DNA of 64,000 bases, taken from the NCBI GenBank assembly GCA_016934535.1, contig JAFGSQ010000019.1, positions 2,342 through 66,341 on the forward strand, given 5' to 3'. Positions within the stretch are counted from its first letter, which is position 1. Every line of letters begins with the position of its first letter. This document shows, one piece after another, positions 22,366-42,122 of the stretch. The notes under the pieces are model-generated. The model made no database searches and was not told the DNA's origin. It saw only the letters and a program-made list of their open reading frames with translations. This stretch comes from a candidate division WOR-3 bacterium. GTDB taxonomy: Bacteria; SDB-A. Position numbers and translations under genes: made by a program.

Positions 22366-23065
22366 CTGCAACAGCCGCGTATATACTTTTAGCCCCGCTT
22401 TTTTTCAAAACCCTGTGAGCTTCTTTTAAAGTCGCCCCGGTGGTCATGACGTCGTCTATCAATATTACGGTTCTGTCTCTCAAAAACCGGAATTCTTCAC
22501 CTTCGGACATTTTTCCCTTCATGTTTTCAGCTCTTTCTTCCCTGTTCAATCCCATTTGATTTTTTTTCTTCCCCTTTAACTTGAGGACTTTGCGTCGGCA
22601 TTCACCGTCCAGTAGCCGGGCGGCGGATTCCGCCATCAACCGTGCCTGGTTGAAACCTCTCTGCCTCAAACTCTTTCTCGAAGAAGGTACCGGCACAAAA
22701 ACAACGGATTCCTCAAAAGCCGGTATTTTTTTTGACAGCTCCTCTCCCAATCTCTTAGCGAGTCTGGAATACCCGTTGAATTTCATGGCCAATATGCTTT
22801 CTTTAAGAGGGCTTCTGTAGGGCCCCAAATAGAACAAGCCGGCAAAAGGCAGTTTCAGTTTTTCTGCACAGTGCTGGCATTTGCCTTCACCGGGCAAGGG
22901 AAGAGAACAAAAAGGGCACTTGTCAAATATTCCGCACAGCTTCAGGCAATCATCGCAAAGAAAAACTTCTTCGTACCCGAGCATTTTACCGCAGAAGCGG
23001 CATTTGGAAGGCAGAAAAAATGAAAATACGGCAGAAACGAATCTTGCCGTGGAAGGGAATATCAT
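22349..23065 (-). CDS. comF: ComF-family protein (double zinc ribbon plus phosphoribosyltransferase domain)
   Basis: N-terminal C-x2-C...C-x2-C pairs; PRTase motif VILIDDVMTTGATLKEA. It is convergent with batD, with tail-to-tail overlap. Confidence 0.75.
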   Translation of the reverse strand: MIFPSTARFVSAVFSFFLPSKCRFCGKMLGYEEVFLCDDCLKLCGIFDKCPFCSLPLPGEGKCQHCAEKLKLPFAGLFYLGPYRSPLKESILAMKFNGYSRLAKRLGEELSKKIPAFEESVVFVPVPSSRKSLRQRGFNQARLMAESAARLLDGECRRKVLKLKGKKKNQMGLNREERAENMKGKMSEGEEFRFLRDRTVILIDDVMTTGATLKEAHRVLKKSGAKSIYAAVAAITVD

Positions 23066-29568: not shown

Positions 29569-29616
29569 CTATTATTAACCTTGTGCAATGTTGTACAACA
29601 AATAACAGGAGGTGCT

Positions 29617-31212
29617 ATGATGAGAATGTTTTTAGTGCTGTCTCTGGCACTGCTGACGCTCGCCTCGGCTGCTTTTACCGAGAATTTTTCCAGAGCCGGG
29701 AATCCCGACCCTGAAATACTTCCCTCTATAACCGGAACCATGTTCAGACAGGGCTCCAGGGCCGGCGACGTACTTTTCGTCGAGGCTTGCGGTCAGCCAG
29801 GTTTCGGCCCGGCTACAAAACCCGACCCGAGATGGACGATGTATCTCGACTCGACTCTCGGTCCCGGCAACTACGACTGGTACGGACCGATAAACGACAC
29901 CGGCGACGGCCCGACGGTCGACACGATGCTTATGTACGATCTGGTCATCTGGAACACTTACGATTGGTGGTGGACAAGTCCGACTTATCCGTCTACGACC
30001 TCTCTCAACAACATGGCGTTGTACATGGATCAGGGCGGAAAGGTCTGGTTCATAGGCCAGGACGCGCACTGGAGCACGGGCACAGGTATGAACGCCTGGC
30101 TGCTTTCATATTTTGAAGTCCAGAGCGTCACAGACGATGTCATAAACGGCGTCTCTCCAATAACCTGCACCGGCGAAAATTTCCTCACCGGATTCAGCTA
30201 CTCGAACGCTTCCGATTTTGCTTCGAACGATTTTTACTCCGACGGCCTGACTATGACCGCCAACGGACAAACCGTTACAGCGTCTTCCGGCTATCACATC
30301 AACTCCCTGGCCAACGACTCTAATGCAGCATACTGGACTAACGACCTGAGAACAATATCTCCAAACTCCACACCGATAGCCATAGTAGATACAATGCTGG
30401 ATTACCTTTTGGGCACCGGCACAGGTCCCGACTACTGTGACACCATCACTTACTGGAACTGGGGAGACATTGAAAACGGAATAAACTACGGAGATCCGCC
30501 GGAATGGATGGCGATGGCGATCAAACTGACCCAGACAGAACTCTCTCCCTACACCGGAAGATACATCCGCAATGTGTGGTTCCAGCTCAGAACGGGCACC
30601 AACCCTGCCGCTGACGCCAGGGTAATCGTCTTGGGCGATACTGCTGTGGGCGACACACTCGCAGTAGTTCCTTTCACGGTTACCGGAGATTCCGGATGGT
30701 ATTACATATCTCTCGGAGATGATTCCGTTCTTATCAACCCGACTGACACTCTCTGGATAATGGTCGGATTCACTTATGCTTCCGGAAATTATCCCTTCCC
30801 CTGCAACGCCGGATCTCTTATAGCTCAGAAGAGCGATTGGGCCTGGACAAACTCCGGAGGATGGGAATATCTCAGCGCTTACGGTCTCAACTACGGTTGG
30901 TGCATAGTCGCGACGACGTGCGCCGCCAACTCCGTCGAAGAAGAGATAATCGGTTCGCCGATATATCCTTTTGACGTCAGAGCAGTGACACCCATAGGAA
31001 GAAAGACTGCGATAAGCTTCTCGAGTCCTTTCATGGTCGGCGTCAATGTCAACGTATTTGACGTCACCGGAAGAATCGTCGAGAACCTCTTCTCGGGATC
31101 AATTCAGGGACAGAGGACTTTTGAGTTCACTTCAGACGTTCCGGGGACCTATTTCTATCAGGTCAACGCTTCGGGTGTAAACTACACGGGTAAACTGACG
31201 ATCATAGACTGA
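29617..31212 (+). CDS. Secreted protein with a T9SS-type C-terminal sorting domain
   Basis: Signal peptide MMRMFLVLSLALLTLASAAF after AGGAGG. The C-terminus ...GTYFYQVNASGVNYTGKLTIID matches the Por_Secre_tail pattern. The track start at 29581 lacks an RBS. Confidence 0.65.
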   Translation: MMRMFLVLSLALLTLASAAFTENFSRAGNPDPEILPSITGTMFRQGSRAGDVLFVEACGQPGFGPATKPDPRWTMYLDSTLGPGNYDWYGPINDTGDGPTVDTMLMYDLVIWNTYDWWWTSPTYPSTTSLNNMALYMDQGGKVWFIGQDAHWSTGTGMNAWLLSYFEVQSVTDDVINGVSPITCTGENFLTGFSYSNASDFASNDFYSDGLTMTANGQTVTASSGYHINSLANDSNAAYWTNDLRTISPNSTPIAIVDTMLDYLLGTGTGPDYCDTITYWNWGDIENGINYGDPPEWMAMAIKLTQTELSPYTGRYIRNVWFQLRTGTNPAADARVIVLGDTAVGDTLAVVPFTVTGDSGWYYISLGDDSVLINPTDTLWIMVGFTYASGNYPFPCNAGSLIAQKSDWAWTNSGGWEYLSAYGLNYGWCIVATTCAANSVEEEIIGSPIYPFDVRAVTPIGRKTAISFSSPFMVGVNVNVFDVTGRIVENLFSGSIQGQRTFEFTSDVPGTYFYQVNASGVNYTGKLTIID

Positions 31213-31226
31213 GGATCTTTTCCTTA

Positions 31227-31259
31227 TAAAGAGGGGGGCCCTGCTCCCCTCTTTTTTTT
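31227..31259 (+). terminator. Rho-independent terminator
   Basis: Stem-loop aagagggg-ggccctgct-cccctctt followed by a T8 run, 15 nt after the stop codon. Confidence 0.7.
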
Positions 31260-31307
31260 ATTCACTTTGCGGTAGAAGTTATTTTTTTCATACTAGTTTT
31301 TAAGATA

Positions 31308-31895
31308 AAGAAATTTCTACCACGAAGTATAAAATTTTGGGACAAATTTTATATGACACTGTTTTATTTCTTCCTGCTTCGTGTAGGAGGATTGCTTGCA
31401 ATCCTCTTTTCGTGCAGGTGGGAAGCGATGCTTCCCACCCTTCGTGGTTGATATCTCTTGTTCTTTCTCTTTATATTAAATACAAAATACAATTTTTACC
31501 ACGAAGCAGAGGCATGTTAAATTACATTCAGCATGCCTCTTACACGAAGGTCTGCTTATTTGCACAGAGCAAATAAGCAGCCTACACGAAGTATAAAATT
31601 TGTGAAACAAATTTTATATGAAAAAGTTCTTTGGATTAATTTTCTTCACCTTCGTGAAGATGGATTGTTTACAATCCATCCTTCGTGAAGCCGCTAATAT
31701 TCGCGGCCTTCGTGGTGGATATCTCTTTTTGTTTTTATTTCTAAGTTTAATTAAAGAAATAAGAGAATTTCTACCACGAAGCAGAGACATGTTAAATTAC
31801 ATTCAGCATGCCTCTTACACGAAGGTCTGCTTATTTGCACAGAGCAAATAAGCAGACTACACGAAATATAAAATTTGTGAAACAAATTTTATAAA
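31308..31895. repeat. Array of 13 small hairpins, each preceded by the 7-mer CACGAAG in either orientation. It is organised as two higher-order units of about 254 and 284 bp.
   Basis: CACGAAG or its reverse complement CTTCGTG occurs 13 times in 590 bp. Five hairpin types (A-E) are present. Types D and E are 95 bp near-identical between the units, while B and C differ in sequence but keep their base pairing. See the findings. Confidence 0.85.
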
Positions 31896-31938
31896 TAAAC
31901 CTCTTTCTGCTTTCTTTCCTTTGTGTTCCAATTTTTGT

Positions 31939-31966: not shown

Positions 31967-32057
31967 CTTTTTCTTAAACTTCATAATGAAATCCCAAGTT
32001 GTGATTTCAGCCGACGAAAGTTTTATGTTATAATAGTTTTTTTTGAAAAGGCGGAAA

Positions 32058-32645
32058 ATGGTATCTGTTTGCCCGCAATGCGGAGGAAAGGTAACACAGC
32101 GGATTTCCCCCCAGGTGGTCCTTTGCCCTTACTGCGGCAGTTCAGTCGAAGTTGAGGCGCTCTCATCTGAAGTCTGGACTCTGAACCCCGTGATAGAGAA
32201 AAAGGCGGCGTGGAATCTTGCCTCGTCCTGCATCGGTGAAATAAGTTTCATCAAAGGATATCTAGTGCCTTTTTCCTCTCCTCCGATAAGCGTTCCGCTC
32301 AACGAAAAAGCGCCGCGGGGTCTCAAATTGAGCTTCGGCGACAGAATTTTCAAGGACAGACTGGACGGATTCGAGACCTTGTCTTCAAAGAACAAACCTT
32401 ACGCCTACATACCTTTCTGGCAAGCAAAAAAAGACGGAGCCTGCGTATGGATTTCGGCATCCGACGGTTCTAGGACAGTGATAAAAGATGAAAAAAAACC
32501 GTCCAAAACTTTCCTGCTTGAAACAGTAGCGCTGGCATTATCGATAGCGGCGGGAACCGTCTGGAAATTGAGTTTCGCGCTTTCCGTACTCGCATTTTCC
32601 GCGATTTTCACGTTAAGTCTTTTTATAAGACCGGGAAAAAAATGA
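32058..32645 (+). CDS. Zinc-ribbon membrane protein of unknown function (paralog 1)
   Basis: ATG at 32058 after AAAGGCGGA. An N-terminal CPQC...CPYC ribbon; two C-terminal TM helices; an IPFW motif. Confidence 0.6.
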   Translation: MVSVCPQCGGKVTQRISPQVVLCPYCGSSVEVEALSSEVWTLNPVIEKKAAWNLASSCIGEISFIKGYLVPFSSPPISVPLNEKAPRGLKLSFGDRIFKDRLDGFETLSSKNKPYAYIPFWQAKKDGACVWISASDGSRTVIKDEKKPSKTFLLETVALALSIAAGTVWKLSFALSVLAFSAIFTLSLFIRPGKK

Positions 32646-33586
32646 ACGTATCAATATCATGCCCGTCATGCGCTTCGCCGGTTTCATACGCGTCAGGCAA
32701 CAAAGTCTGCAGGTGCCTGTCATGCGGAACGGTGCTGAAAATATTACTGACTGGCGGGATATTCAGTTACAGGAAGGAAATTCAGGAATCAATCCTGGAA
32801 AAAGCCGTGAAAACTTCTCTCGACGACTTCTGCCAGAACAATGATTACAGAATCATAGACAGAGATGTTATATTCCTGCCGATTTGGTGTGCAGAAGGAA
32901 GAGTTACCGGCTGGGTTTCCGGAAAAGTGAACAAAAAAAGGACACCTTATTCAGTGGAGGACGGAAAAGGAAAAAAAAGGGTTTTGTTCAGGACCGAGGG
33001 AGGAGAAGTACTCAGGAGGATAATTGACGTCCCTTTGACCTTTTTCGACGTAGACAACTCATTTTTCAGGGAATATTTTCCATCAGTCGATTTATTCTCC
33101 GGCGCCCGAGAAGACAACCTTCTTCTTTTCGATGAAGATAAAATGAAAGATTCCGGAAAAATATATTTTCCGGAAAAGGAAATTGAAGAAGCGAAAGCGG
33201 TTTTTGTAAAAAAAATGAAAGAAACCGCACTTTCGCATTGGGACGCGAAAAAATTCGACTTTTTCAGATCAGTTTCTGAAGTTTTGAATTTCAACCTGAC
33301 CCTGATATTCTATCCTGTCCTGTTAGTCAGGTTCGTTCTTTCAAAAAGAGAAGGATTTGTAATAATCGACTGTACGACCGGAAAAACAGCGGGCAGGAAA
33401 ATGACAGTGCTCAAATCCGGAGAAGAGAATTTCCTTGCCAAAAAAGGGCTTTTTTGCCTTGCCTCCTCTGTTGTGGGCTACGTCTCGGGGATACTGATAT
33501 CTAGAGGCGGTTTTTTTGCCGGCGTGGGGATTTTTCTCGCTCTCCTAGGCGCTGTTTTCCTGTTCAGGAAGAATTATGGCGATTAG
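32642..33586 (+). CDS. Zinc-ribbon membrane protein of unknown function (paralog 2)
   Basis: ATGA overlap with the previous gene. CPSC...CRC/CLSCG ribbons; an LPIW motif; two C-terminal TM helices; 314 aa. Confidence 0.6.
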   Translation: MNVSISCPSCASPVSYASGNKVCRCLSCGTVLKILLTGGIFSYRKEIQESILEKAVKTSLDDFCQNNDYRIIDRDVIFLPIWCAEGRVTGWVSGKVNKKRTPYSVEDGKGKKRVLFRTEGGEVLRRIIDVPLTFFDVDNSFFREYFPSVDLFSGAREDNLLLFDEDKMKDSGKIYFPEKEIEEAKAVFVKKMKETALSHWDAKKFDFFRSVSEVLNFNLTLIFYPVLLVRFVLSKREGFVIIDCTTGKTAGRKMTVLKSGEENFLAKKGLFCLASSVVGYVSGILISRGGFFAGVGIFLALLGAVFLFRKNYGD

Positions 33587-34286
33587 AATCGTTCCGCTCG
33601 TATGCGGTATATGCGGCAACAGCCTTAAAGCGAAAGATTCAGACCAGGTGTTTTTGTGCTCTCACTGCGTCAAGGCATTTGAACCGCAGGAAACGACTGA
33701 CAATGTTTTTAATGTATTGTCGTCTTCTTCTGAAGACTCCAGCGTTTTTCTTCCCTATTTCCTTATCAGGGGCACCGTGACAGAAAATGAAATTGAAATC
33801 ATAGACCTTGACGATCTCGCCGAACTGAGCGCCTCTGATTATTTCGGGACACTTAATCCTTTTCATGACAACGAAAAGACAAAAGAAGAAATTGTCATCA
33901 GCGCCGGCAAAAAAATGATAGAGGCAAAGATCCTCAAAAAACCATACTCATTATCAGTAGCCGTACCGGCTTTTAAGTCCAAAAACGCGATTCAATACGG
34001 TATGGAATACGGCAAAATTTTTCCCGCTGAACCAAGGTTTGAAAAAAAATACGCCGAACCGTCCCTTTCCCTGCAAATGTCTTCAGGCGGCGCGGTTTTA
34101 ACGGCAAAAAACCTTATTCTGAACGCGAGAGCTAAGGAAAACTCCTACATTCTCAGCATTGACTTCGACTGGAGAATTGATATTATAAGCGTCGTGATAC
34201 TCGGTTTCAAAGAAACCGGCGGTGTTTTGGAAAACGAAGAAACCGGCCTGAAGATTCCGAAGACAGCCCTGAAAGAGGACAAATGA
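33576..34286 (+). CDS. Zinc-ribbon protein of unknown function (paralog 3, soluble)
   Basis: 11-nt overlap with the previous gene. CGICG...CSHC ribbon; an LPYF motif; 236 aa. Confidence 0.55.
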   Translation: MAIRIVPLVCGICGNSLKAKDSDQVFLCSHCVKAFEPQETTDNVFNVLSSSSEDSSVFLPYFLIRGTVTENEIEIIDLDDLAELSASDYFGTLNPFHDNEKTKEEIVISAGKKMIEAKILKKPYSLSVAVPAFKSKNAIQYGMEYGKIFPAEPRFEKKYAEPSLSLQMSSGGAVLTAKNLILNARAKENSYILSIDFDWRIDIISVVILGFKETGGVLENEETGLKIPKTALKEDK

Positions 34287-35914
34287 CAGAAAAAACAAAA
34301 TTTTCAATAAAACGGGGACAAATCCCTTTTGAAGTGTTCAAATCTTCCGGCCTCAATCTTGAAAACGTCATAGCCTGCCGCCTGAACGGTTTTCCCGCGG
34401 ACCTGCTTCTGCAGGTAAAGGATTCATTCAATGTCACTCCTATAACCGCTTCCGATACTGATTGGCTGAGGATATACAGAAACTCGATGACCTTTCTCCT
34501 TTTCAGGGCGGTCAGCGAGATATTCAGAAACACTCGTGTGGTAGTCAACCATTCCATTTCTTCGGGATATTATTACGAAATTGTGTCGTCAGTTCTCCCG
34601 AGGGCCGACGAAATTACGGCCATCGAATCGAGAATGAAAAAAATCGCCGAAAACGACGAAGAAATCCAGCGGGAAGTAATTTCAAAAGAAAAAGCCGTCA
34701 AACTTTTTGAGAATAAAGGCAGAAAAGACACGGCCGGCCTTTTAAAAAATTACGACCGTGACGAAATCGTCCTGTACAAATCCGGCCCCGTTTTTGATTT
34801 TTATAATTCTCCTCTCGCTCCCAAAACCGGCATTCTCAAACATTTCGCTGTAAAATCATATCCGCCTGGAATCGTCGTTCAGTTTCCGTCTGCCAATAAC
34901 CCGTCAAAGCTCGGTCCGTGGAAAGAACAGAAAAAGCTGTTTAAAATATATCACGAACAGAGGAGATGGAATCAGATACTCGATATAATCAATGTCAGAG
35001 ACCTGAATCAGGCTATTGCCCGAGGAAAGGGAGGAGAAATTATCCGGGTCGCTGAAGCCCTGCACGAAAAGAAGCTTTCCGCTATAGCCGACGAAGTTTC
35101 CCACGACCGCCAGAAAAGGGTCATTTTGATTTCCGGACCGAGCTCGTCAGGAAAGACGACTTTTTCGCGCAGACTGACAATAGCCTTGCAGGTAAACGGA
35201 CTCCGGTCGGTGACTCTCTCGCTTGACAACTACTTCGTCGACAGAGAACAGACTCCCCTCGACGAAAAAGGGAATCCCGATTATGAGTCTCCTAAAACAA
35301 TTCAGACCGATTTATTCCGTGAACAGCTCCTGAGCCTCCTAAACGGCAAAAAGGTCCGGGTTCCCAAATTCGATTTCACGACGGGAAAGAAAAAAGTCAA
35401 TTCGGTCGAGACGTCCATAGAACCGGGTCACCCGATAATAATCGAGGGCATCCACGCCCTGAACGAAGATCTGACTGATATGCTCGAACCCGAAGTGAAA
35501 CTGAAACTTTACGCAAGTCCGTTGACGCAGGTCAACATGGACGATCACAACAGAGTAACTACGTCCGACTGCCGTATACTGAGAAGGATTGTCAGGGACA
35601 GCCAGTTCAGAGGCTACAGCCCCACGGACACAATTAACAGATGGCAGAGCATCTCCCGCGGCGAAGGAAGATGGATCTACCCTTATCAGGAAACCGCCGA
35701 CATCATGTTCAACACTTCTCTCATATACGAGATACCGGCCTTAAAAAGAAAAGCCGTCGAAATGTTAAAAACAGTAAAAGAATCTGAACCGGCGTACATG
35801 GAAGCAGTCAGGCTTCTATCAATTCTCGAATTTTACTCCGAGATGGAAACAGATGAAATACCATTCACTTCCGTCCTCAGGGAGTTCATTGGCGGAAGCG
35901 TTTTTAAATACTGA
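34283..35914 (+). CDS. Fusion of a threonyl-tRNA synthetase N-terminal (TGS plus second additional domain)-like region to a uridine/cytidine kinase-family P-loop kinase
   Basis: The N-terminal TGS-like region resembles the ThrRS N-terminus. The P-loop LISGPSSSGKTTFSRRL and the IIEGIHAL motif are typical of Udk/PRK kinases; 543 aa. Confidence 0.7.
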   Translation: MTEKTKFSIKRGQIPFEVFKSSGLNLENVIACRLNGFPADLLLQVKDSFNVTPITASDTDWLRIYRNSMTFLLFRAVSEIFRNTRVVVNHSISSGYYYEIVSSVLPRADEITAIESRMKKIAENDEEIQREVISKEKAVKLFENKGRKDTAGLLKNYDRDEIVLYKSGPVFDFYNSPLAPKTGILKHFAVKSYPPGIVVQFPSANNPSKLGPWKEQKKLFKIYHEQRRWNQILDIINVRDLNQAIARGKGGEIIRVAEALHEKKLSAIADEVSHDRQKRVILISGPSSSGKTTFSRRLTIALQVNGLRSVTLSLDNYFVDREQTPLDEKGNPDYESPKTIQTDLFREQLLSLLNGKKVRVPKFDFTTGKKKVNSVETSIEPGHPIIIEGIHALNEDLTDMLEPEVKLKLYASPLTQVNMDDHNRVTTSDCRILRRIVRDSQFRGYSPTDTINRWQSISRGEGRWIYPYQETADIMFNTSLIYEIPALKRKAVEMLKTVKESEPAYMEAVRLLSILEFYSEMETDEIPFTSVLREFIGGSVFKY

Positions 35915-36282
35915 TGATTCAGGGAATTGGCATAGACATAGTCGAAAAGAGAAGAATAGCGTCCGCTTTGAGCAAATTCGGCGTCAGATTCGCTGAAAAG
36001 ATATTGTCTGAATCCGAACTTGCCGAATTTACGTCGAGAGAATATGATATCGAATGGCTTGCGGGAAGGTTTTCCGCCAAAGAAGCGGCTTCCAAAGCTA
36101 TCGGCACCGGAATGAGAGACGGGATATGGTTCAAGGATTTTTGTGTTGCCTCTTCGGATGGAAAACCAGCAATAATATTGAATGGCAATGCTAAAAAACG
36201 CGCAGGCGACGGATTTTTTCATCTTTCAATAAGTCACGAAAGAGAATACGCAGTTTCAGTAGTAATATTCGAGAAAGGATAA
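35914..36282 (+). CDS. acpS: Holo-[acyl-carrier-protein] synthase
   Basis: N-terminus MIQGIGIDIVEKRRI...; 122 aa; 4'-phosphopantetheinyl transferase motifs. Confidence 0.85.
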   Translation: MIQGIGIDIVEKRRIASALSKFGVRFAEKILSESELAEFTSREYDIEWLAGRFSAKEAASKAIGTGMRDGIWFKDFCVASSDGKPAIILNGNAKKRAGDGFFHLSISHEREYAVSVVIFEKG

Positions 36283-36288
36283 AAGTGA

Positions 36289-37260
36289 ATGAACGACATA
36301 AGAACGGGAGTAATCGGCGTCGGCCACCTCGGAAGACACCACGCGAGAATCTACAAACAGCTTGGCTGCCTGGAAGGAGTTTACGACCTTAACCAGGACA
36401 GAATGAATGAAGTTGCCGCCGAATTTTCCTGCAAACCTTACCCTGACATGAACGAACTTATAAAAAAAGTAGACGCGGTCTCTCTCGCGACGACAGCTTC
36501 AACCCATCACACAATAGGCATGAAAGTGCTTGACAACAAAAAACATCTTCTCGTAGAAAAACCTGTAACAGTCCTGACCTCTCACGCCGAAGAAATGATT
36601 AGATCCGCTTCAAAAGGAGGCGTTGTACTTCAGGTCGGGCATTCTGAACGATTCAATCCGGCTTTTCTTTACGTCAAAGACAAAATACGGGATCCCTTTT
36701 TCATTGAGAGTCATCGAATCGGTTTCCCCTCGGAACGTGGCCTCGACGTAGCCGTCGTTTTCGACTTGATGATCCACGATATAGACATCGCGCTTCAATA
36801 CATAAAAAGTCCCATAAAGGAGATATCCGCAATCGGCGGACCGATTTTCTCAAGAGAAATCGACATTGCAAACGCGCGTGTCGAATTTGAAAACGGAGCC
36901 ATAGCAAATCTGATGGTCAGTCGGGCGGCTCAGAAATCAAAAAGAAAAATCAGATTTTTCCAGATGGACGCTTACATATCACTCGATTTTCAGGAAAGAA
37001 TCGTCGAGATTTACAAGCGGACTCTGGAGAACGGAAAATACAGCATTTCCGTGGATAAATCCGAGCAGAAAGAAGGAGAGCCTCTCATGCTCGAGATCAG
37101 TTCTTTCATAAACTCCGTAAAAGAGGGTAAAAAGCCTGAAGTCAGCGGTGAAGACGGCATGAGGTCGCTTGAAGTCGCCTGGAAAATTATTGAAAAGATA
37201 AAAACGAGATATTCAAGCATGATAGGTTTTTATGCGCAAGATACTCATAGTAACCGGTGA
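36289..37260 (+). CDS. Gfo/Idh/MocA-family NAD(P)-dependent oxidoreductase (GnnA-like candidate)
   Basis: Rossmann N-terminus GVIGVGHLGRHHARI with the typical C-terminal alpha/beta domain. It is embedded between acpS and lpxB. Confidence 0.8.
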   Translation: MNDIRTGVIGVGHLGRHHARIYKQLGCLEGVYDLNQDRMNEVAAEFSCKPYPDMNELIKKVDAVSLATTASTHHTIGMKVLDNKKHLLVEKPVTVLTSHAEEMIRSASKGGVVLQVGHSERFNPAFLYVKDKIRDPFFIESHRIGFPSERGLDVAVVFDLMIHDIDIALQYIKSPIKEISAIGGPIFSREIDIANARVEFENGAIANLMVSRAAQKSKRKIRFFQMDAYISLDFQERIVEIYKRTLENGKYSISVDKSEQKEGEPLMLEISSFINSVKEGKKPEVSGEDGMRSLEVAWKIIEKIKTRYSSMIGFYAQDTHSNR

Positions 37261-38344
37261 ACTTTCCGGAGACATTCACGCCTCCGAATTCATAAGGGAA
37301 TCACTGGCCTTTGACAGCGATATCGAATTTTTTGCTATCGGCGGAAGCAACATGGAAAAAGCCGGCGCCGCTATAATAATGCCTTATGACTCCCTGACGG
37401 CCATGGGTTTCGTCTCTCCGGTTCTGAACATATTTCACTACAGGCGAATACTCGACAAAATACACAAATGGATGAAGACCGAAAAACCGGATGCCGTCGT
37501 ACTCGTCGATTTTCCCGGTTTCAACCTTCAGGTCGCGATGTTCGCTCATTATCTTAACATTCCGGTTGTCTACTATATTCTGCCTCAGGTGTGGGCGTGG
37601 GGAACATGGCGAATCAGACAAATTAAAAAATATGTAGACCTTGCCCTGGTCATACTCCCATTCGTACCGAAGTTTTTTTCCCAGTACGGTGTAAGATCCG
37701 TATACGTGGGGCATCCGGTCCTCGACACTGTTGTTAAACGCGGGAACTACCCTGAAACCGCAGACGAAAAAAATACCGCTACTGTAGGTCTTTTCCCCGG
37801 TTCGAGAAAGTCGGAAATCAGAAGGCATATCCTGGTAATGTTAAAAGTAGCGGAATTAATAAGAATCCGGCATCCAGAAGTCAATTTCCTCGTCGCCTGC
37901 GACCCGAAAAACGCAGACACGGCATACTTGCCAGGTTACATAAACTTCGTGCCAGACGATCCATACGGCGTCATGAAAAGATCCAGTATCCTCATAGCCG
38001 CTTCAGGTACAGTGACACTTGAGGGAGCCTTTTTTGAAAAACCCATGATCGTCATATACAAAACCGAGGCTCCGACCTATTTTCTAGCAAGGCTTCTCGC
38101 AAAAGTACCTTACATCAGCCTCGTAAATATAACGGGAGGGGAAAAAATATTACCTGAGTTCATTCAGAAAAACGCCGACCCGGAAAAAATAGCTCAAAGC
38201 GCCGAAAGCCTTCTGTACGATAATGCTGTGAGAGAAAAGATGATAAACAAAATTAAAACCGTCAAGAAAAAACTCGGCTCTCCAGGAGCGTCAAAAAGAG
38301 CGGCCGAATATTTTTTGAGATTCATAAATGAAAATAAAAGATAA
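37232..38344 (+). CDS. lpxB: Lipid-A-disaccharide synthase
   Basis: N-terminus MRKILIVTGELSGDIHASEFIRE plus the GT-B fold; 370 aa. Confidence 0.9.
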   Translation: MRKILIVTGELSGDIHASEFIRESLAFDSDIEFFAIGGSNMEKAGAAIIMPYDSLTAMGFVSPVLNIFHYRRILDKIHKWMKTEKPDAVVLVDFPGFNLQVAMFAHYLNIPVVYYILPQVWAWGTWRIRQIKKYVDLALVILPFVPKFFSQYGVRSVYVGHPVLDTVVKRGNYPETADEKNTATVGLFPGSRKSEIRRHILVMLKVAELIRIRHPEVNFLVACDPKNADTAYLPGYINFVPDDPYGVMKRSSILIAASGTVTLEGAFFEKPMIVIYKTEAPTYFLARLLAKVPYISLVNITGGEKILPEFIQKNADPEKIAQSAESLLYDNAVREKMINKIKTVKKKLGSPGASKRAAEYFLRFINENKR

Positions 38345-38984
38345 ACTTTTTCTCGGCCCCGGCGTGTACATTGGTTATCTGTTCATACTTTTGTGGGGCA
38401 AAACTCTTTCCATTGTCAAAAGGAACATCGAAGAAACACTGTCCGATAAAAGCAATTACCCGGCCGTCTATCTTCTTTGGCACAGAGACCTTCTGGTCCC
38501 GGCTTTTTTCTTCAGAAACAAAGGGTATAAAGTACTCATCGGAAAGCACAGGGACGCAGAATATATTTCGAGGATATCGCTGAAACTCGGTTACAGAACA
38601 CTGAGGGGTTCTGCAACCAGGGGATCCGCTTCGGCGATGAGAAACATCGTCAAATCTCTCAAAAAAAATGAAATCGTCGTTATCACTCCTGACGGCCCGA
38701 CTGGTCCGCCTCAGGAAATAAAAGAAGGCTCCCTCCTGGCCGCCGTCAAAATAGGGGCTCCCGTGATACCTGTTGTACTTTCGTACAAAAAATTTTACTC
38801 TTTCAAATCGTGGGACAAGTTCCGTCTCGCAATTCCATTTTCAAAAGTGTGCATTCTGTTCGGCAAGCCTGTTTTAATGAAGGATTGCGGGTCCAGGGAC
38901 AACGTCCGCAGAATAAAACCGATCCTCGAAAAAAAAATAATCGGACTCGAAAAAGTTGCAGAGAAGGCGTTGTGCTCAGCGTAA
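38328..38984 (+). CDS. DUF374-family lysophospholipid acyltransferase-like protein
   Basis: A 218 aa ORF with an N-terminal hydrophobic helix. This family is commonly adjacent to waaA. Confidence 0.65.
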   Translation: MKIKDKLFLGPGVYIGYLFILLWGKTLSIVKRNIEETLSDKSNYPAVYLLWHRDLLVPAFFFRNKGYKVLIGKHRDAEYISRISLKLGYRTLRGSATRGSASAMRNIVKSLKKNEIVVITPDGPTGPPQEIKEGSLLAAVKIGAPVIPVVLSYKKFYSFKSWDKFRLAIPFSKVCILFGKPVLMKDCGSRDNVRRIKPILEKKIIGLEKVAEKALCSA

Positions 38985-40219
38985 TCGCGTACAATATCTT
39001 TCTTGCTATATTTTTCCCCTTTCTGGCTCTTGTCATTTTTGCGAAAATACTGCAAACACGCAGAGAATGGATGAACAGATGGGGATTTTTGCCAAAATTC
39101 AAGAAAAGATACGTAATCTGGATCCACGGTTCATCTGTCGGAGAAATAAATTCTCTCAAATCAATTTGCGCGGACCTGAGTGTCAAACACCCCCGCTTCA
39201 GGTTTCTGGTGACCTCCTACACAAGGACAGGTGTCATTCGCGCAGAAAATATAATGAACAAAAAGAACATCAAAACGGCTTTTTTCCCTTTCGATTTTCC
39301 TTTGAGCGTAATCAACGCGGTCAACAGAGTAAAACCTTCATGTGTCCTTTTCACGGAAACAGAAATATGGCCGAATTTTCTTTTTTACTGCAGGCTTAGA
39401 AAGATACCGGTATTCCTTTTGAGCGCAAGAATATCCGACAGGACTTATCCCCGATACAAATCCTTCCGGAGATTTTTGAAAAGGGTCCTTTCCTCCTACA
39501 CATTCGTTTTCGCCCAGGACGAATTAAACGCCCGGCGCTTTATAGAAATCGGCGTGCCCAAGGACAGAATATCCAGGTCAGGCTCTCTGAAAGCTTCTTA
39601 TGAAATACAGTCGCCTCCTCCTTTACCAATCCGGCCCGGAACAATTCTATGGACAGCCGGCCCTTTGAGAAAAGGCGAATTCGAGCAGATTTTAGAGGTT
39701 TTCTCTTCCCTGAAAAACAGGTATTCTTCCCTCGCTCTTCTTTTGGCTCCAAGATATCTCGACATGACACAGGATATTCTGCGGTGTGCCCGATCAAAAA
39801 GCCTCGAACCGACTCTTAGGTCTCATTCTGCGGAGATATTGCCGGGACTGACCATACTTGACAGCCTTGGCGAGCTTTCTCGTTTCTACAAAGAGGCTAA
39901 AATAGCTTTTATAGGGGGTTCTTTTGTCAACGCGGGAGGTCACAATCCCCTCGAAGCGGCTTTTCAGGGAGTACCCGTGCTGATGGGACCGCATTATCAG
40001 AACGTCGAAGACACGATGAACAAACTCGCCGAGGCAAAAGGAGCCTGGATAGTCGAATCTCAACAGGATCTTGAAAAAGCGCTCGATAAGTTACTCTCCA
40101 ACGAAGACATGAGACGATCGGCCTCGGAAAATATACAAAAAGCCGCACTGTCGCAGCTCGTTTCAAAAAATGAAATATACGAGATGATTGAGAAGAAAAC
40201 TCCCGGATTCCCATGTTGA
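38972..40219 (+). CDS. waaA: 3-deoxy-D-manno-octulosonic acid (Kdo) transferase
   Basis: GTG start at 38972 (VLSVIAYNIFLAIFF...) and the WIHGSSVGEINS motif. The track start at 38810 lies inside the previous gene. Confidence 0.85.
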   Translation: MLSVIAYNIFLAIFFPFLALVIFAKILQTRREWMNRWGFLPKFKKRYVIWIHGSSVGEINSLKSICADLSVKHPRFRFLVTSYTRTGVIRAENIMNKKNIKTAFFPFDFPLSVINAVNRVKPSCVLFTETEIWPNFLFYCRLRKIPVFLLSARISDRTYPRYKSFRRFLKRVLSSYTFVFAQDELNARRFIEIGVPKDRISRSGSLKASYEIQSPPPLPIRPGTILWTAGPLRKGEFEQILEVFSSLKNRYSSLALLLAPRYLDMTQDILRCARSKSLEPTLRSHSAEILPGLTILDSLGELSRFYKEAKIAFIGGSFVNAGGHNPLEAAFQGVPVLMGPHYQNVEDTMNKLAEAKGAWIVESQQDLEKALDKLLSNEDMRRSASENIQKAALSQLVSKNEIYEMIEKKTPGFPC

Positions 40220-41172
40220 AATTCCTTTTAGTTCCTCTCGTTCCTCTGTATTTCTCACTTTACTGTTTAGACAAAAAAATAAAGACCTCCAAAAAAACAA
40301 GATTTTCAGCAAAGACGATAAGCGTCGGAAATATCGAAGCAGGAGGCACCGGTAAAACCCAGTTTGTATCTTACATTCTTTCTATTCTGGAAAGAAAGAA
40401 TGTCCGTGCGGCTGTGCTGGCGAGAGGATACGGGGGATCTCACAGAGGTTTCGTGAGCCCAAACACTCCTGAAGCGGGTGACGAAGTAAGAATGATCTCC
40501 AGGAAATTCAGCAATTTTCCTGTCGTCGCTTGCGGCGACAGACAGAGAGGTTATAAAATGCTGATCAAAGAAAATCCGGGAGTCGAAGTCATTATACTCG
40601 ACGACGGATATCAGCAATACGGAATTGCCAAGGATCTCGATATCCTTCTTCTCGACTGGGAAAATCCCAAAGCCGGAGGTCTCATTCCCATGGGGAGCCT
40701 GAGAGAACCTCTATTGGCTTCAAGAAGGGCAGACCTTATAATTTTCACAAGAACCAAAGAACCTGTTTTACCGGCAGGTTTGGCAAGATTCCCGGATTCA
40801 CTCAGTGTTCCATGCCTTTTTTGCGATTTCGAGACAACAGGAGTTATAAAGAAAGGCGTCTCTCTGTCGCGAAGGGAAAAATATTTTTTTGTAAGTTCCA
40901 TAGCAAAACCCGAAAGACTGCTCAGACATCTGAACTCCTCAGGATTCGACATCACAAATTTCATGTTTTTCAGGGACCACCATTCCTTTTCTGACAGAGA
41001 CGCCGATAAAATCATTTCGAGCACAAAAAAAAGCGGATGTAAGGAAGTGCTTTGCACAGAAAAAGACGCTGTGAAACTGCCCTTCGAATGCGCAATAATA
41101 GAATCTGAAATAAAATGGTTCGGCAATTCGGGAGACATTTTTATTAAAAAGCTCACGGAGACTGTACTTTGA
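40213..41172 (+). CDS. lpxK: Tetraacyldisaccharide 4'-kinase
   Basis: P-loop SVGNIEAGGTGKTQFV; 319 aa. Confidence 0.85.
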   Translation: MLKFLLVPLVPLYFSLYCLDKKIKTSKKTRFSAKTISVGNIEAGGTGKTQFVSYILSILERKNVRAAVLARGYGGSHRGFVSPNTPEAGDEVRMISRKFSNFPVVACGDRQRGYKMLIKENPGVEVIILDDGYQQYGIAKDLDILLLDWENPKAGGLIPMGSLREPLLASRRADLIIFTRTKEPVLPAGLARFPDSLSVPCLFCDFETTGVIKKGVSLSRREKYFFVSSIAKPERLLRHLNSSGFDITNFMFFRDHHSFSDRDADKIISSTKKSGCKEVLCTEKDAVKLPFECAIIESEIKWFGNSGDIFIKKLTETVL

Positions 41173-42122
41173 AAGCGGGAATCATTGAAGGAGGGGGCGG
41201 CGGACTTCGCTTTTTCGTATTCAATGGCTGGAAAATAGTGGAAAAAGTGTCGCTTCCCGAGGGCAATTATATGAAGATAAAAGAAAATTTACCGGATTAT
41301 TTAAAAGATCTCCTTACAAAAAGCTCTTCATACGATCCTGTCTCCCCTATCGGCGCCGCCCTTGCAGGTCTTTATACTGATTCTGAAAAAGAGCATTTTA
41401 AAACTTCGCTCAAAAAAGCCGGGCACCTGGGCGAAGCTTACATAACCAACGACGCATTCGCAGCTTATCATGGAGCTTTCAAGGAATTCGGGAATATACT
41501 AACACTGTCCGGAACGGGTTCGATAGTTTTTTCCGTTTCAAAAGAAGGATTTCTTAAAAGACGCGGCGGTTGGGGACATTTGCTGGGAGACGAGGGCAGT
41601 GGATTCTGGATAGGCAGGCAGGCTCTCAGGAAAGTCACCGGATTATACGACAAAAAGATCCAAAGCTCTTCTCTCGTTTCATTTCTCCTGAACAACAGAC
41701 GGTTCGAAACAATGGATTTTGTCAGGCAGTTTTTGTCTTCGAGCAATCCGGTCAAAGATATTTCACTTCTCACATACGATCTGAATAATGCCGCGGAAAA
41801 TGGCCTCGTTGAGGCGGCGGATATTTTCCGGGAAGCGGCCGATAATATCGCGGAAGAAGTATTGAGCCTGTCCATTGAAACAAAATCACATTTTTATGCC
41901 CTGCGCGGCGGAGTGGCGATGAACTGCCCTGTTTTTTATGATAGAATTACGGAAATACTTGAAAAAAAGGGAATGGAAATGAAAGACGAAAAGTTGACTG
42001 CCGTCGGAGGATTATTGGCGATAATCTTCGGCGACGAAACTTTTCAAGAACTCAGGAGGCATAATGATAAAGAAGTCGTTCTTATTGTTAATCCTTATGA
42101 TTCCCGCAGTGGCGTTTTGTGA
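41169..42122 (+). CDS. BadF/BadG/BcrA/BcrD-type ATPase (ASKHA superfamily, N-acetylglucosamine-kinase-like)
   Basis: Glycine-rich N-terminus IIEGGGGG; motifs SGTGSIVF and GGWGHLLGDEGSG. Confidence 0.7.
   Translation: MKAGIIEGGGGGLRFFVFNGWKIVEKVSLPEGNYMKIKENLPDYLKDLLTKSSSYDPVSPIGAALAGLYTDSEKEHFKTSLKKAGHLGEAYITNDAFAAYHGAFKEFGNILTLSGTGSIVFSVSKEGFLKRRGGWGHLLGDEGSGFWIGRQALRKVTGLYDKKIQSSSLVSFLLNNRRFETMDFVRQFLSSSNPVKDISLLTYDLNNAAENGLVEAADIFREAADNIAEEVLSLSIETKSHFYALRGGVAMNCPVFYDRITEILEKKGMEMKDEKLTAVGGLLAIIFGDETFQELRRHNDKEVVLIVNPYDSRSGVL

What the first reader, a model, noticed from the sequence alone, without database searches (positions are those of the whole stretch)
32058..34286. Three consecutive paralogous zinc-ribbon proteins of unknown function, translationally coupled to the late lipid A/Kdo operon
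Three ORFs of 196, 314 and 236 aa each begin with a C-x2-C ... C-x2-C zinc ribbon within the first 30 residues: CPQCGG..CPYCG, CPSC..CRCLSCG and CGICG..CSHC. Each then carries a conserved aromatic motif (IPFW, LPIW, LPYF) 50-110 residues downstream, suggesting distant paralogy. Two of them end in paired TM helices and the third is soluble.

Their junctions overlap (ATGA, 11 nt, ATGA). They lead directly into the ThrRS-N/Udk fusion, acpS, lpxB, waaA and lpxK genes with no intergenic gap.

I cannot assign them to any named family. A membrane-anchored Zn-ribbon trio at the head of the lipid A disaccharide/Kdo operon could be a novel envelope-assembly or regulatory module for that operon.
Basis: partly seen in the sequence, partly recalled or inferred. 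Interest (0 to 1): 0.62.

Follow-up and report, generated by a model that had tools for sequence, protein, structure and literature searches.

The report
Three SamG/YdjG-like zinc-ribbon membrane proteins
The three zinc-ribbon genes are real, diverged copies of one another and relatives of Bacillus subtilis YdjG/SamG, a membrane protein that tethers a stomatin-like (SPFH) protein and PspA to the membrane, so they look like a membrane-stress docking module and not a new lipopolysaccharide factor.

Summary
Three overlapping ORFs (195, 314 and 236 aa) each start with C-x2-C-x14-C-x2-C. They are the only 3 of 113 window ORFs of at least 100 aa with that pattern. ORF1 and ORF2 end in a two-helix hydrophobic hairpin; ORF3 has none.

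No Pfam, NCBIfam or PADLOC model covers them beyond weak zinc-ribbon hits. A 22-sequence profile of the ORF2 family matches B. subtilis YdjG/SamG (hhalign 97.6%, E 3.6e-12). It still matches without the zinc ribbons and the membrane segment (94.5%, E 7e-8; shuffled controls E >= 0.036).

ORF1 and ORF3 share the zinc-ribbon module with ORF2 (98.9% and 96.2%). In Nitrospirota, Methylomirabilota and other phyla, ORF2-like and ORF3-like halves are fused into one protein. That protein follows a YdjI/SamI-type SPFH (Band_7_1) plus zinc-ribbon gene in 37 of 42 loci.

The same three-gene order recurs in four lineages, in unrelated operons. The link to lpxB-waaA-lpxK holds only within one WOR-3 clade.

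Best reading: a cytoplasm-facing, membrane-anchored complex of three paralogues of the SamG type. No SPFH gene lies in the window, the function is inferred, and structure prediction failed. It is a new variant of a known but poorly understood kind. A lipopolysaccharide-specific role is not supported.

The parts
31228..31256 (+). Intrinsic-terminator-like hairpin plus T-run that ends the upstream T9SS-tail protein gene and separates the trio from upstream transcription
   Evidence: 12-bp stem, 7 GC pairs, T-run; the same element is present in relatives L001 and L003
32026..32034 (+). TGTTATAAT, an extended -10-like promoter element about 24 nt before the ORF1 ATG (an AAGGCGG Shine-Dalgarno sequence follows at 32048-32054); likely operon promoter (inferred)
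   Evidence: sequence; conserved in the otherwise diverged spacers of L001 and L003
32058..32645 (+). ORF1, 195 aa: short SamG/YdjG-like paralogue. It has an N-terminal C4 zinc ribbon (aa 5-26, nt 32070-32135), a conserved helix, two P-aromatic beta-hairpin motifs and a C-terminal two-helix hydrophobic hairpin (aa ~152-190, nt ~32511-32627)
   Evidence: identical protein P0010 annotated in a candidate division WOR-3 MAG
32642..33586 (+). ORF2, 314 aa: full-length SamG/YdjG-like protein. It has a zinc ribbon (aa 7-28, nt 32660-32725), a central alpha/beta domain homologous to YdjG residues ~85-310 and a C-terminal two-helix hairpin (aa ~269-308, nt ~33446-33565)
   Evidence: the ORF2-family HMM hits B. 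subtilis YdjG at E 8e-17
33576..34286 (+). ORF3, 236 aa: soluble paralogue with a zinc ribbon (aa 10-31, nt 33603-33668). It is equivalent to the C-terminal half of fused ORF2+ORF3 proteins of other phyla
   Evidence: 99.7%, E 2.3e-25 over 188 columns
34283..42122 (+). Tightly packed downstream genes, probably co-transcribed. They are context, not part of the module: ThrRS-N-like/uridine kinase, acpS, Gfo/Idh/MocA oxidoreductase, lpxB, DUF374, waaA, lpxK, BcrAD_BadFG ATPase
   Evidence: the same order occurs in WOR-3 relatives

Best explanation
What it is: the three genes encode diverged paralogues of the YdjG/SamG family. Members have an N-terminal C4 zinc ribbon, then an alpha/beta domain. 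Ravi et al. 2024 describe that domain in YdjG as YpeB-related with an NTF2-like fold. Most members also carry a C-terminal membrane anchor.

Proposed arrangement: ORF1 and ORF2 sit in the inner membrane through C-terminal helical hairpins. Their zinc-ribbon and alpha/beta domains face the cytoplasm. Soluble ORF3 docks onto ORF2, because the two are one polypeptide in other phyla. Together they would form a heteromeric platform just under the membrane.

Proposed function: by analogy with B. subtilis SamG/SamH, and from the near-obligate pairing of relatives with a SamI/YdjI-type SPFH-plus-zinc-ribbon gene, the platform most likely recruits or regulates an SPFH scaffold at the membrane. Through that scaffold it may act on PspA/ESCRT-III-like membrane repair, as part of sensing or maintaining membrane integrity. 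In this WOR-3 clade the module is transcribed from its own promoter at the head of an operon that also carries late lipid A genes. That fits co-regulation with envelope biogenesis but does not show a role in lipopolysaccharide synthesis.

Shown here: the ORFs, motifs and hydrophobic tails; paralogy; homology of ORF2 to YdjG; the ORF2+ORF3 fusion; the SPFH neighbourhood in relatives; and conservation of the trio order.

Inferred: topology, complex formation, the SPFH or PspA partner in this organism, and the physiological role.
For: Homology to YdjG/SamG
- ORF2-family profile vs B. subtilis YdjG: 97.6%, E 3.6e-12, 241 columns.
- YdjG core 85-310, without ribbons or membrane segment: 94.5%, E 7.4e-8. 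Twenty shuffles gave E >= 0.036.
- A plain HMM of the ORF2 family hits YdjG at E 8e-17.
- The ribbon spacing is the same in YdjG (sequence).

Paralogy within the trio.

Fusion of ORF2 and ORF3
- 24 proteins of 420-565 aa with two ribbons and no hydrophobic segment.
- Their N half matches the ORF2 family (100%, E 9e-40).
- Their C half matches the ORF3 family (99.7%, E 2e-25).

SPFH neighbourhood
- 37 of 42 genome loci have a Band_7_1 plus double zinc-ribbon gene immediately upstream on the same strand; 2 of the 5 without it start too close to the contig end to show an upstream gene (local HMM; Pfam 37/37).
- The unfused trio of L011 follows the same kind of gene.
- A two-ribbon, membrane-anchored relative (L067) has a Band_7 fragment 1.6 kb downstream.

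Trio order: conserved in four lineages at 18-28% identity.

Published experiments on the B. subtilis homologue
- YdjG and YdjH are required for membrane foci of YdjI and PspA, and they interact in two-hybrid tests (PMC8581546, read).
- SamI restrains SamGH signalling (bioRxiv 10.64898/2026.02.06.704340).
- Domain description of YdjG (PMC11237479).
Against: - No Band_7_1, PspA or TPM (YdjH-like) gene lies in the 64-kb window or in any WOR-3 locus fetched. The PspA and TPM searches used single B. subtilis sequences and are insensitive.
- The fused relatives have no membrane segment, so membrane anchoring is not universal in the family.
- No PspA or TPM gene was found next to the SPFH-linked cassettes either, so the link to PspA rests on B. 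subtilis alone.
- For ORF1 and ORF3, only the zinc-ribbon-plus-helix module is statistically supported as homologous to ORF2. The remainder aligns at low confidence.
- AlphaFold models were unusable (pLDDT 36-39), so the fold and the complex are untested.
- Within the WOR-3 clade the trio stays linked to the udk-acpS-lpx genes down to 37-41% identity while the upstream gene changes. That leaves room for a clade-specific envelope-biogenesis role.
Confidence: 0.55

Rival explanations
1. One reading: the trio is a dedicated envelope-assembly or regulatory module for the late lipid A/Kdo pathway. For example, it could scaffold or sense LpxB, LpxK and WaaA at the cytoplasmic face of the inner membrane.
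For: - The trio heads the operon with lpxB-DUF374-waaA-lpxK.
- This linkage persists in WOR-3 relatives down to 37-41% protein identity, even where the upstream neighbour differs.
- In the 28%-identity lineage L007, lpxB-DUF374-waaA lies about 5 kb away on the opposite strand.
- LpxB, LpxK and WaaA act at the cytoplasmic face of the inner membrane (general knowledge), where the trio is predicted to sit.
Against: - There is a homologue in B. subtilis, which has no lipopolysaccharide.
- In L007 the trio is co-directional with the rib, nusB and ispD genes, and in L011 with SPFH and DUF1015.
- The 42 fused-family loci show no lpx neighbours among the families recovered.
- The operon also holds udk and acpS, so it is functionally mixed.
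- There is no similarity to any Lpx, Lpt or Waa family.
Confidence: 0.12
2. The trio is a self-contained membrane stress sensor or signalling complex that works without any SPFH or PspA partner in this lineage. It would resemble the proposed signalling activity of SamGH, and the zinc ribbons would mediate protein or nucleic-acid contacts.
For: - Trios in the WOR-3, L007 and L066 lineages have no SPFH gene nearby.
- In B. subtilis, SamGH is proposed to signal on its own when SamI is absent.
- YdjG's first ribbon matches the TFIIB-type Pfam model above threshold.
Against: - Absence from a locus is not absence from the genome.
- No DNA-binding domain, kinase or other output domain is present in any of the three proteins.
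- The window proteins' ribbon matches to named families are all below threshold.
Confidence: 0.2
3. The ORFs are unrelated small zinc-finger proteins, or annotation artefacts, that happen to be adjacent. The resemblance would be limited to a generic CxxC...CxxC motif.
For: - Direct pairwise BLASTP and shallow profile comparisons align only the ribbon.
Against: - Each ORF has orthologues at 37-95% identity.
- The trio order is conserved in four lineages.
- The ribbon spacing is identical and unique within the window.
- Deeper profiles extend the match beyond the ribbon.
- ORF1-position proteins of other lineages hit the ORF2 HMM at up to 5e-30.
- ORF2 and ORF3 are fused in other phyla.
Confidence: 0.02

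Closest known systems
[quoted passage not shown]
   Same: - N-terminal C4 zinc ribbon with the same C-x2-C-x14-C-x2-C spacing.
- A homologous central alpha/beta domain with the two 'hydrophobic-P-hydrophobic-W' and 'D/N-G-x-T/S-G-K' hairpin motifs.
- A C-terminal membrane anchor.
- No curated domain model beyond the ribbon.
- Relatives of the trio are encoded next to YdjI/SamI-type Band_7_1 plus zinc-ribbon genes, as ydjG is.
   Different: - YdjG has two tandem ribbons and one C-terminal membrane helix. ORF1 and ORF2 have one ribbon and a two-helix hairpin, and ORF3 has no anchor.
- Here three paralogues occur together.
- There is no TPM-domain partner (YdjH/SamH), no PspA and no SPFH gene in the locus.
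- The host is a diderm candidate phylum, and the genes sit in a lipid A operon.
Fused double YdjG-like proteins (420-565 aa) encoded after a Band_7_1 plus zinc-ribbon gene in Nitrospirota, Methylomirabilota, Acidobacteriota, Deltaproteobacteria and others. None of the papers read here describes them.
   Same: - The N half is homologous to ORF2 and the C half to ORF3, over nearly their full lengths.
- The ribbon spacing is the same.
   Different: - They are a single polypeptide with no membrane segment and no ORF1-like partner in the locus.
- They are almost always preceded by the SPFH gene, and often by a conserved ~165-aa helical protein. Both are absent from the window.
PspB/PspC or LiaI/LiaF-type membrane anchors of PspA systems
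   Same: They are small inner-membrane proteins proposed to recruit or sense for a membrane-repair scaffold. The resemblance is a functional analogy only.
   Different: There is no sequence relationship, and none of those Pfam families was hit. The domain make-up also differs.

Membership tests
YdjG/SamG-like zinc-ribbon membrane proteins | N-terminal C4 zinc ribbon(s), C-x2-C-x14-C-x2-C | tested here: met
   All three ORFs have it. The spacing is the same in both YdjG ribbons (sequence) and in nearly all 52 relatives. All four Cys are invariant in the ORF2 and ORF3 family alignments; in the ORF1 alignment only the second pair is.
YdjG/SamG-like zinc-ribbon membrane proteins | Central alpha/beta domain homologous to YdjG residues ~85-310 (described as YpeB-related with an NTF2-like fold in PMC11237479) | tested here: met
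   Met for ORF2: hhalign 97.6%, E 3.6e-12 for the full length; 94.5%, E 7.4e-8 for the core alone, against shuffles at E >= 0.036; HMM E 8e-17. For ORF1 and ORF3 only the ribbon plus following helix is significant, and the rest aligns in register at low confidence. The fold itself was not verified because the AlphaFold models were poor.
YdjG/SamG-like zinc-ribbon membrane proteins | C-terminal transmembrane anchor | tested here: met
   ORF1 and ORF2 have a two-segment hydrophobic hairpin flanked by K/R residues, where YdjG has a single helix. ORF3 has none, like the fused relatives. This is a hydropathy result only; insertion and topology were not tested.
YdjG/SamG-like zinc-ribbon membrane proteins | Encoded with a YdjI/SamI-type SPFH (Band_7_1) plus zinc-ribbon protein | tested here: not met
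   No Band_7_1-like ORF lies in the 64-kb window or in the WOR-3, L007 or L066 loci. The feature is met in relatives: L011, L015 and 37 of 42 genome loci. The rest of this genome could not be searched.
YdjG/SamG-like zinc-ribbon membrane proteins | Encoded with PspA and a TPM-domain membrane partner (YdjH/SamH) | tested here: not met
   phmmer with B. subtilis PspA and YdjH finds nothing in the window or in any fetched locus (low sensitivity). The Pfam survey of outer neighbours of the fused family recovered no PspA or TPM family.
YdjG/SamG-like zinc-ribbon membrane proteins | Recruits the SPFH protein and PspA to membrane foci; interacts with its partner proteins | not testable with these tools
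   Known only from B. subtilis experiments (PMC8581546).
Lipid A/Kdo (Lpx, Waa, Lpt) biosynthesis or assembly proteins | Sequence membership in a known LPS family | tested here: not met
   No Pfam or NCBIfam hit other than sub-threshold zinc ribbons.
Lipid A/Kdo (Lpx, Waa, Lpt) biosynthesis or assembly proteins | Gene linkage to lpx genes conserved across distant relatives, and distribution restricted to LPS producers | tested here: not met
   Linkage holds only in one WOR-3 clade. Other trios lie in rib/ispD and SPFH/DUF1015 contexts. A homologue exists in B. subtilis.
TFIIB-type zinc-ribbon transcription factors (PF08271) | Match to the family model above its gathering score | tested here: not met
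   The window proteins have no above-threshold ribbon family; the best hit is 17.8 bits against a cut-off of 27. YdjG itself passes PF08271 at 41 bits.

The most novel reading that the evidence does not exclude
In this WOR-3 clade a SamG-type trio has been uncoupled from its usual SPFH partner and wired into the late lipid A operon. There it would act as a cytoplasmic-face membrane scaffold or sensor that couples lipid A disaccharide/Kdo synthesis (LpxB, LpxK, WaaA) to the state of the inner membrane. That would be a previously unknown control layer for lipopolysaccharide synthesis in a diderm that may lack the canonical regulators.
Probability: 0.12. Interest if true: 0.65.

Novelty: new variant of a known kind. 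Interest (0 to 1): 0.4.

Why it matters
- **A handle on three hypothetical proteins.** SamG/YdjG is so far studied only in B. subtilis, and no curated domain model covers its non-ribbon part. This locus ties three 'hypothetical' WOR-3 proteins to that system.
- **The family is broader than described.** It is widespread across phyla. It exists as a conserved three-paralogue module and as a fused two-module protein. Outside Firmicutes its steady partner is the SamI-type SPFH protein, not PspA or the TPM protein.
- **Testable predictions.** The fusion predicts an ORF2-ORF3 contact. The neighbourhood data point to the SPFH protein as the conserved partner and to a ~165-aa helical protein as a further candidate partner.
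- **For annotation.** The alignments made here could seed a family model for several hundred 'hypothetical' proteins.
- **For lipopolysaccharide biology.** The result is mostly negative, because operon position alone does not support a lipid A role.

Tried and rejected
- **Curated libraries.** Pfam, NCBIfam and PADLOC scans gave only sub-threshold ribbon hits or nothing.
- **Solved structures by sequence.** Only generic ribbon proteins such as Rpo12, eS27 and LysW came up.
- **Shallow comparisons.** Direct BLASTP and shallow profile comparisons between the three ORFs aligned only the ribbon. Paralogy became visible only with deeper alignments.
- **Structure prediction.** AlphaFold2 on ORF2 and ORF3 with 5-6 close orthologues gave pLDDT 35.7 and 38.7. 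The models were unusable, so no fold search was run.
- **Word-indexed homologue search.** It found only 4-5 close WOR-3 orthologues per protein.
- **Concatenated queries.** A single concatenated ORF1+2+3 query was accepted and gave the distant relatives.
- **Locus scans.** A narrower fused-family alignment worked, so the large context survey covers the fused form and not the split trio.
- **Literature.** Searches for WOR-3 zinc-ribbon/LPS links and for Band_7_1/COG4260 found nothing relevant.
- **Partners in the window.** Searches for PspA, TPM and SPFH genes were negative.
- **Considered and rejected.** A zinc-binding anti-sigma factor, because there is no adjacent sigma factor gene (Pfam on the flanking genes; the lack of an HxxxCxxC motif is from reading the sequences, not a formal scan). 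An anti-phage defence system, because PADLOC found nothing and the context is housekeeping.
Full report
**1. Observation**

The region holds three co-directional ORFs: 32058-32645 (195 aa), 32642-33586 (314 aa) and 33576-34286 (236 aa). They overlap by 4, 11 and 4 nt (ATGA, 11 nt, ATGA into the next gene).

Each begins with C-x2-C-x14-C-x2-C: ORF1 Cys 5/8/23/26, ORF2 7/10/25/28, ORF3 10/13/28/31. Of 113 window ORFs of at least 100 aa, only these three carry that pattern.

ORF1 and ORF2 end in two adjacent hydrophobic segments flanked by basic residues. ORF3 has none.

A strong terminator-like hairpin (31228-31256) closes the upstream gene. A TGTTATAAT box (32026-32034) and an AAGGCGG ribosome-binding site precede the ORF1 ATG. 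Both are conserved in relatives whose spacers are otherwise different. The trio therefore heads its own transcription unit.

Downstream, overlapping or within 6 nt of each other, lie:
- a ThrRS-N-like/uridine-kinase fusion
- acpS
- a Gfo/Idh/MocA oxidoreductase
- lpxB
- DUF374
- waaA
- lpxK
- a BcrAD_BadFG ATPase

**2. Source and close relatives**

ORF1 is identical to a protein annotated in a candidate division WOR-3 MAG. Word-indexed searches found only 4-5 orthologues per protein, all from WOR-3-type assemblies at 44-95% identity.

The loci of those orthologues share the whole gene order from the trio to lpxK. More distant members at 37-41% identity (GCA_001412365.1 and a related contig) keep the order trio, udk, acpS, oxidoreductase, lpxB, DUF374, waaA, lpxK. 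In them the upstream neighbour changes to a divergent DegT gene.

Inside this clade, then, the trio really is part of the operon that holds the late lipid A genes.

**3. No curated family, and failed structures**

Pfam, NCBIfam and PADLOC give nothing except sub-threshold zinc-ribbon matches. PDB sequence searches return only generic ribbon proteins.

AlphaFold2 with the shallow orthologue alignments gave pLDDT 35.7 (ORF2) and 38.7 (ORF3). I did not use those models, and I ran no fold search.

**4. Distant relatives**

An exhaustive phmmer search with ORF1+ORF2+ORF3 concatenated gave 55 hits at E <= 1e-3. Apart from orthologues and fragments of the trio proteins, the distant hits fall into two classes.
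- Class (a): proteins of 286-399 aa with an N-terminal ribbon, sometimes two, and a C-terminal hydrophobic hairpin. These resemble ORF2.
- Class (b): proteins of 420-565 aa with two ribbons about 250-380 residues apart and no hydrophobic segment.

Profile comparisons of class (b) show two things.
- The N half is homologous to the ORF2 family (100%, E 9e-40, 242 columns).
- The C half is homologous to the ORF3 family (99.7%, E 2.3e-25, 188 columns covering almost all of ORF3).

ORF2 and ORF3 are therefore fused into one chain in other phyla. That is classic evidence that the two proteins act together physically.

**5. Paralogy within the trio**

With shallow alignments only the ribbon aligned. 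Deeper family alignments (A6, A7, A8) give stronger results:
- ORF1 vs ORF2: 98.9%, E 1.5e-17, covering the ribbon plus the following helix
- ORF3 vs ORF2: 96.2%, E 2.2e-9
- ORF1 vs ORF3: 95.9%, E 5.6e-9

A greedy alignment places the remaining motifs and the membrane hairpins in register, though at low confidence.

Plain HMM searches agree.
- ORF1-position proteins from other lineages hit the ORF2-family HMM at 4e-13, 4e-12 and 5e-30.
- The window's ORF1 hits it at 4.9e-6.

One correction: ORF1's IPFW probably corresponds to ORF2's second hairpin, and ORF1's YLVPF to the LPIW/LPYF position.

**6. Identification with YdjG/SamG**

Two distant loci had a Band_7_1 (SPFH) plus zinc-ribbon gene directly upstream. 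That recalled the B. subtilis pspA-ydjGHI operon.

I recovered that locus from a metagenome contig, using a published ydjG primer sequence as the search pattern. It encodes:
- PspA
- YdjG, 341 aa, with two ribbons of the same spacing, a 'YIPFW' and an 'LLPVWMVSY...NGQTGKVVG' motif, and one C-terminal helix
- YdjH, with a TPM domain
- YdjI, with Band_7_1 plus a ribbon

The ORF2-family profile matches YdjG at 97.6%, E 3.6e-12, over 241 columns. With the ribbons and the membrane segment removed, the YdjG core (85-310) still matches at 94.5%, E 7.4e-8. Twenty shuffled cores and the reversed core gave E >= 0.036. An ordinary HMM of the ORF2 family hits YdjG at E 8e-17.

ORF2 is thus a YdjG/SamG homologue, and ORF1 and ORF3 are more diverged members of the same superfamily.

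[quoted passage not shown] YdjG and YdjH are needed for membrane foci of the SPFH protein YdjI and of PspA, and they interact in two-hybrid assays (PMC8581546). A 2026 preprint renames the proteins SamGHI and proposes that SamI restrains SamGH signalling.

**7. Gene neighbourhoods**

*Split trios.* The order short anchored paralogue, long anchored paralogue, soluble paralogue, with overlapping junctions, recurs in four lineages at 18-28% identity.
- The WOR-3 clade.
- L007-L010, where the order is ribD-ribE-ribBA-ribH-nusB-metallophosphoesterase-trio-ispD. There, lpxB-DUF374-waaA lies about 5 kb away on the other strand.
- L011-L014, where the order is a ~165-aa helical protein, Band_7_1 plus ribbon, the trio, then DUF1015.
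- L066.

*Fused form.* A scan of one genome per species returned 42 loci from Nitrospirota, Methylomirabilota/Rokubacteria, Acidobacteriota, Deltaproteobacteria, Binatia, Verrucomicrobia and others.
- 37 of the 42 have a Band_7_1-like gene immediately upstream on the same strand; 2 of the 5 without it start too close to the contig end to show an upstream gene.
- Pfam confirms Band_7_1 in 37 of 37 and double zinc ribbons in 34 of them.
- 22 of them, plus L011/L012, also carry the conserved ~165-aa helical protein, which has no Pfam match.
- Outer neighbours share no family. No PspA, TPM or lpx family was recovered.

A two-ribbon anchored relative (L067) has a Band_7 fragment 1.6 kb away.

The window itself has no Band_7_1, PspA or TPM gene.

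**8. Interpretation**

The shown facts are these:
- There are three paralogues of the SamG type.
- Two of them carry membrane hairpins.
- ORF2 and ORF3 are fused elsewhere.
- The family is strongly and repeatedly linked to a SamI-type SPFH gene.
- The trio is an evolutionarily mobile unit found in unrelated operons.

From these I infer a heteromeric platform anchored in the inner membrane and facing the cytoplasm. It would dock or regulate an SPFH scaffold, and possibly an ESCRT-III-like PspA, in membrane-integrity sensing or maintenance.

A cytoplasmic location for the N-terminal domains follows from three points. There is no signal sequence. Both ends of each hairpin are basic. The inter-helix loops are very short (SRGG in ORF2, WK in ORF1). 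It has not been tested.

It has no support outside it. A B. subtilis homologue exists, other trios sit elsewhere, and the operon is functionally mixed.

**9. Novelty and score**

The family has been described, but only in Firmicutes and only briefly. None of the papers I read describes the following:
- the three-paralogue module
- the two-helix anchors
- the fused form
- the near-obligate pairing with SPFH across many phyla
- the helical 165-aa companion

I rate this a new variant of a known kind, of moderate interest (0.4). It gives a functional lead for a set of hypothetical proteins and testable partners for a poorly understood system. It is not a surprising new mechanism, and its function in this organism is inferred.

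**10. Limits**
- The structure predictions were wasted on shallow alignments.
- The large context survey covers the fused form, not the split trio.
- PspA and TPM detection in neighbourhoods was insensitive.
- The rest of the source genome could not be searched for an SPFH partner.

Noticed in passing
window 31300-31900 (spacer between the terminator at 31228-31256 and ORF1): A hairpin-rich repeat. 11 of the window's 15 CACGAAG/CTTCGTG words fall within 31321-31824, arranged as runs of three CACGAAG then three CTTCGTG with perfect hairpins between them, and a 172-nt unit is repeated at 275-nt spacing. The 281-nt stretch 31480-31760 folds at -102.7 kcal/mol (z = -11.5). No Rfam family matches. 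Relative L001 has the same flanking sequence but only one basic hairpin (309-nt spacer), so the window carries a ~550-nt expansion or insertion; L003 has four such words. It could be a mobile hairpin repeat or a structured RNA.
   Followed up: partly
L011:4824-5303 and 22 of loci L019-L060 (e.g. L025:2644-3141, L036:5377-5877): A conserved ~165-aa, apparently all-helical protein with no Pfam match (motifs VPGVAGYQDRE...RGYxGLFDL...LYAFDL) sits directly upstream of the Band_7_1 plus zinc-ribbon gene in SPFH-linked cassettes. It is a candidate additional partner of the system and is absent from the window.
   Followed up: partly
L023:2756-3235, L025:5735-6220, L027:8481-8960, L035, L040, L043, L051: In Methylomirabilota-type loci, a ~160-aa protein follows the fused YdjG-like gene with an 8-nt overlap. 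It has one N-terminal hydrophobic segment and a conserved Cys-rich motif (CGPSLLGGMTCRARY) and has no Pfam match. It may supply the membrane anchor that the fused protein lacks.
   Followed up: no
window 36289-37260 and 38328-38984: A Gfo/Idh/MocA oxidoreductase lies between acpS and lpxB, and a DUF374 protein lies between lpxB and waaA. Both positions are conserved in all WOR-3 relatives. From general knowledge, the oxidoreductase may be a GnnA-like UDP-GlcNAc 3-oxidase, which would hint at a diamino-sugar lipid A; this was not tested.
   Followed up: no
window 22349-23065 (- strand): A 238-aa ORF with a Cys-rich N-terminus (several CxxC pairs at residues 22-66). It is the only other ORF in the window with paired CxxC motifs, and their spacing differs from the trio's.
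   Followed up: no
window 29581-31212: The 543-aa protein upstream of the trio has only a weak, sub-threshold match to the type IX secretion C-terminal sorting domain (Por_Secre_tail, 20 bits against a cut-off of 27) and no other domain. The M1 peptidase downstream of the operon in a relative (L063) also carries a weak Por_Secre_tail match.
   Followed up: no
L003:1372-1959: The annotated ORF1 orthologue P0013 (184 aa) starts after the first CxxC. The ORF is open 33 nt further upstream (1372), so the database start is probably called too late.
   Followed up: partly
L034, L036, L041, L045, L047, L054, L058: In several high-GC loci the longest ORF containing the fused YdjG-like gene extends upstream to 790-890 aa and overlaps the Band_7_1 gene region. 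This is probably start-codon over-extension in another frame and not a true SPFH fusion, but it was not checked.
   Followed up: no
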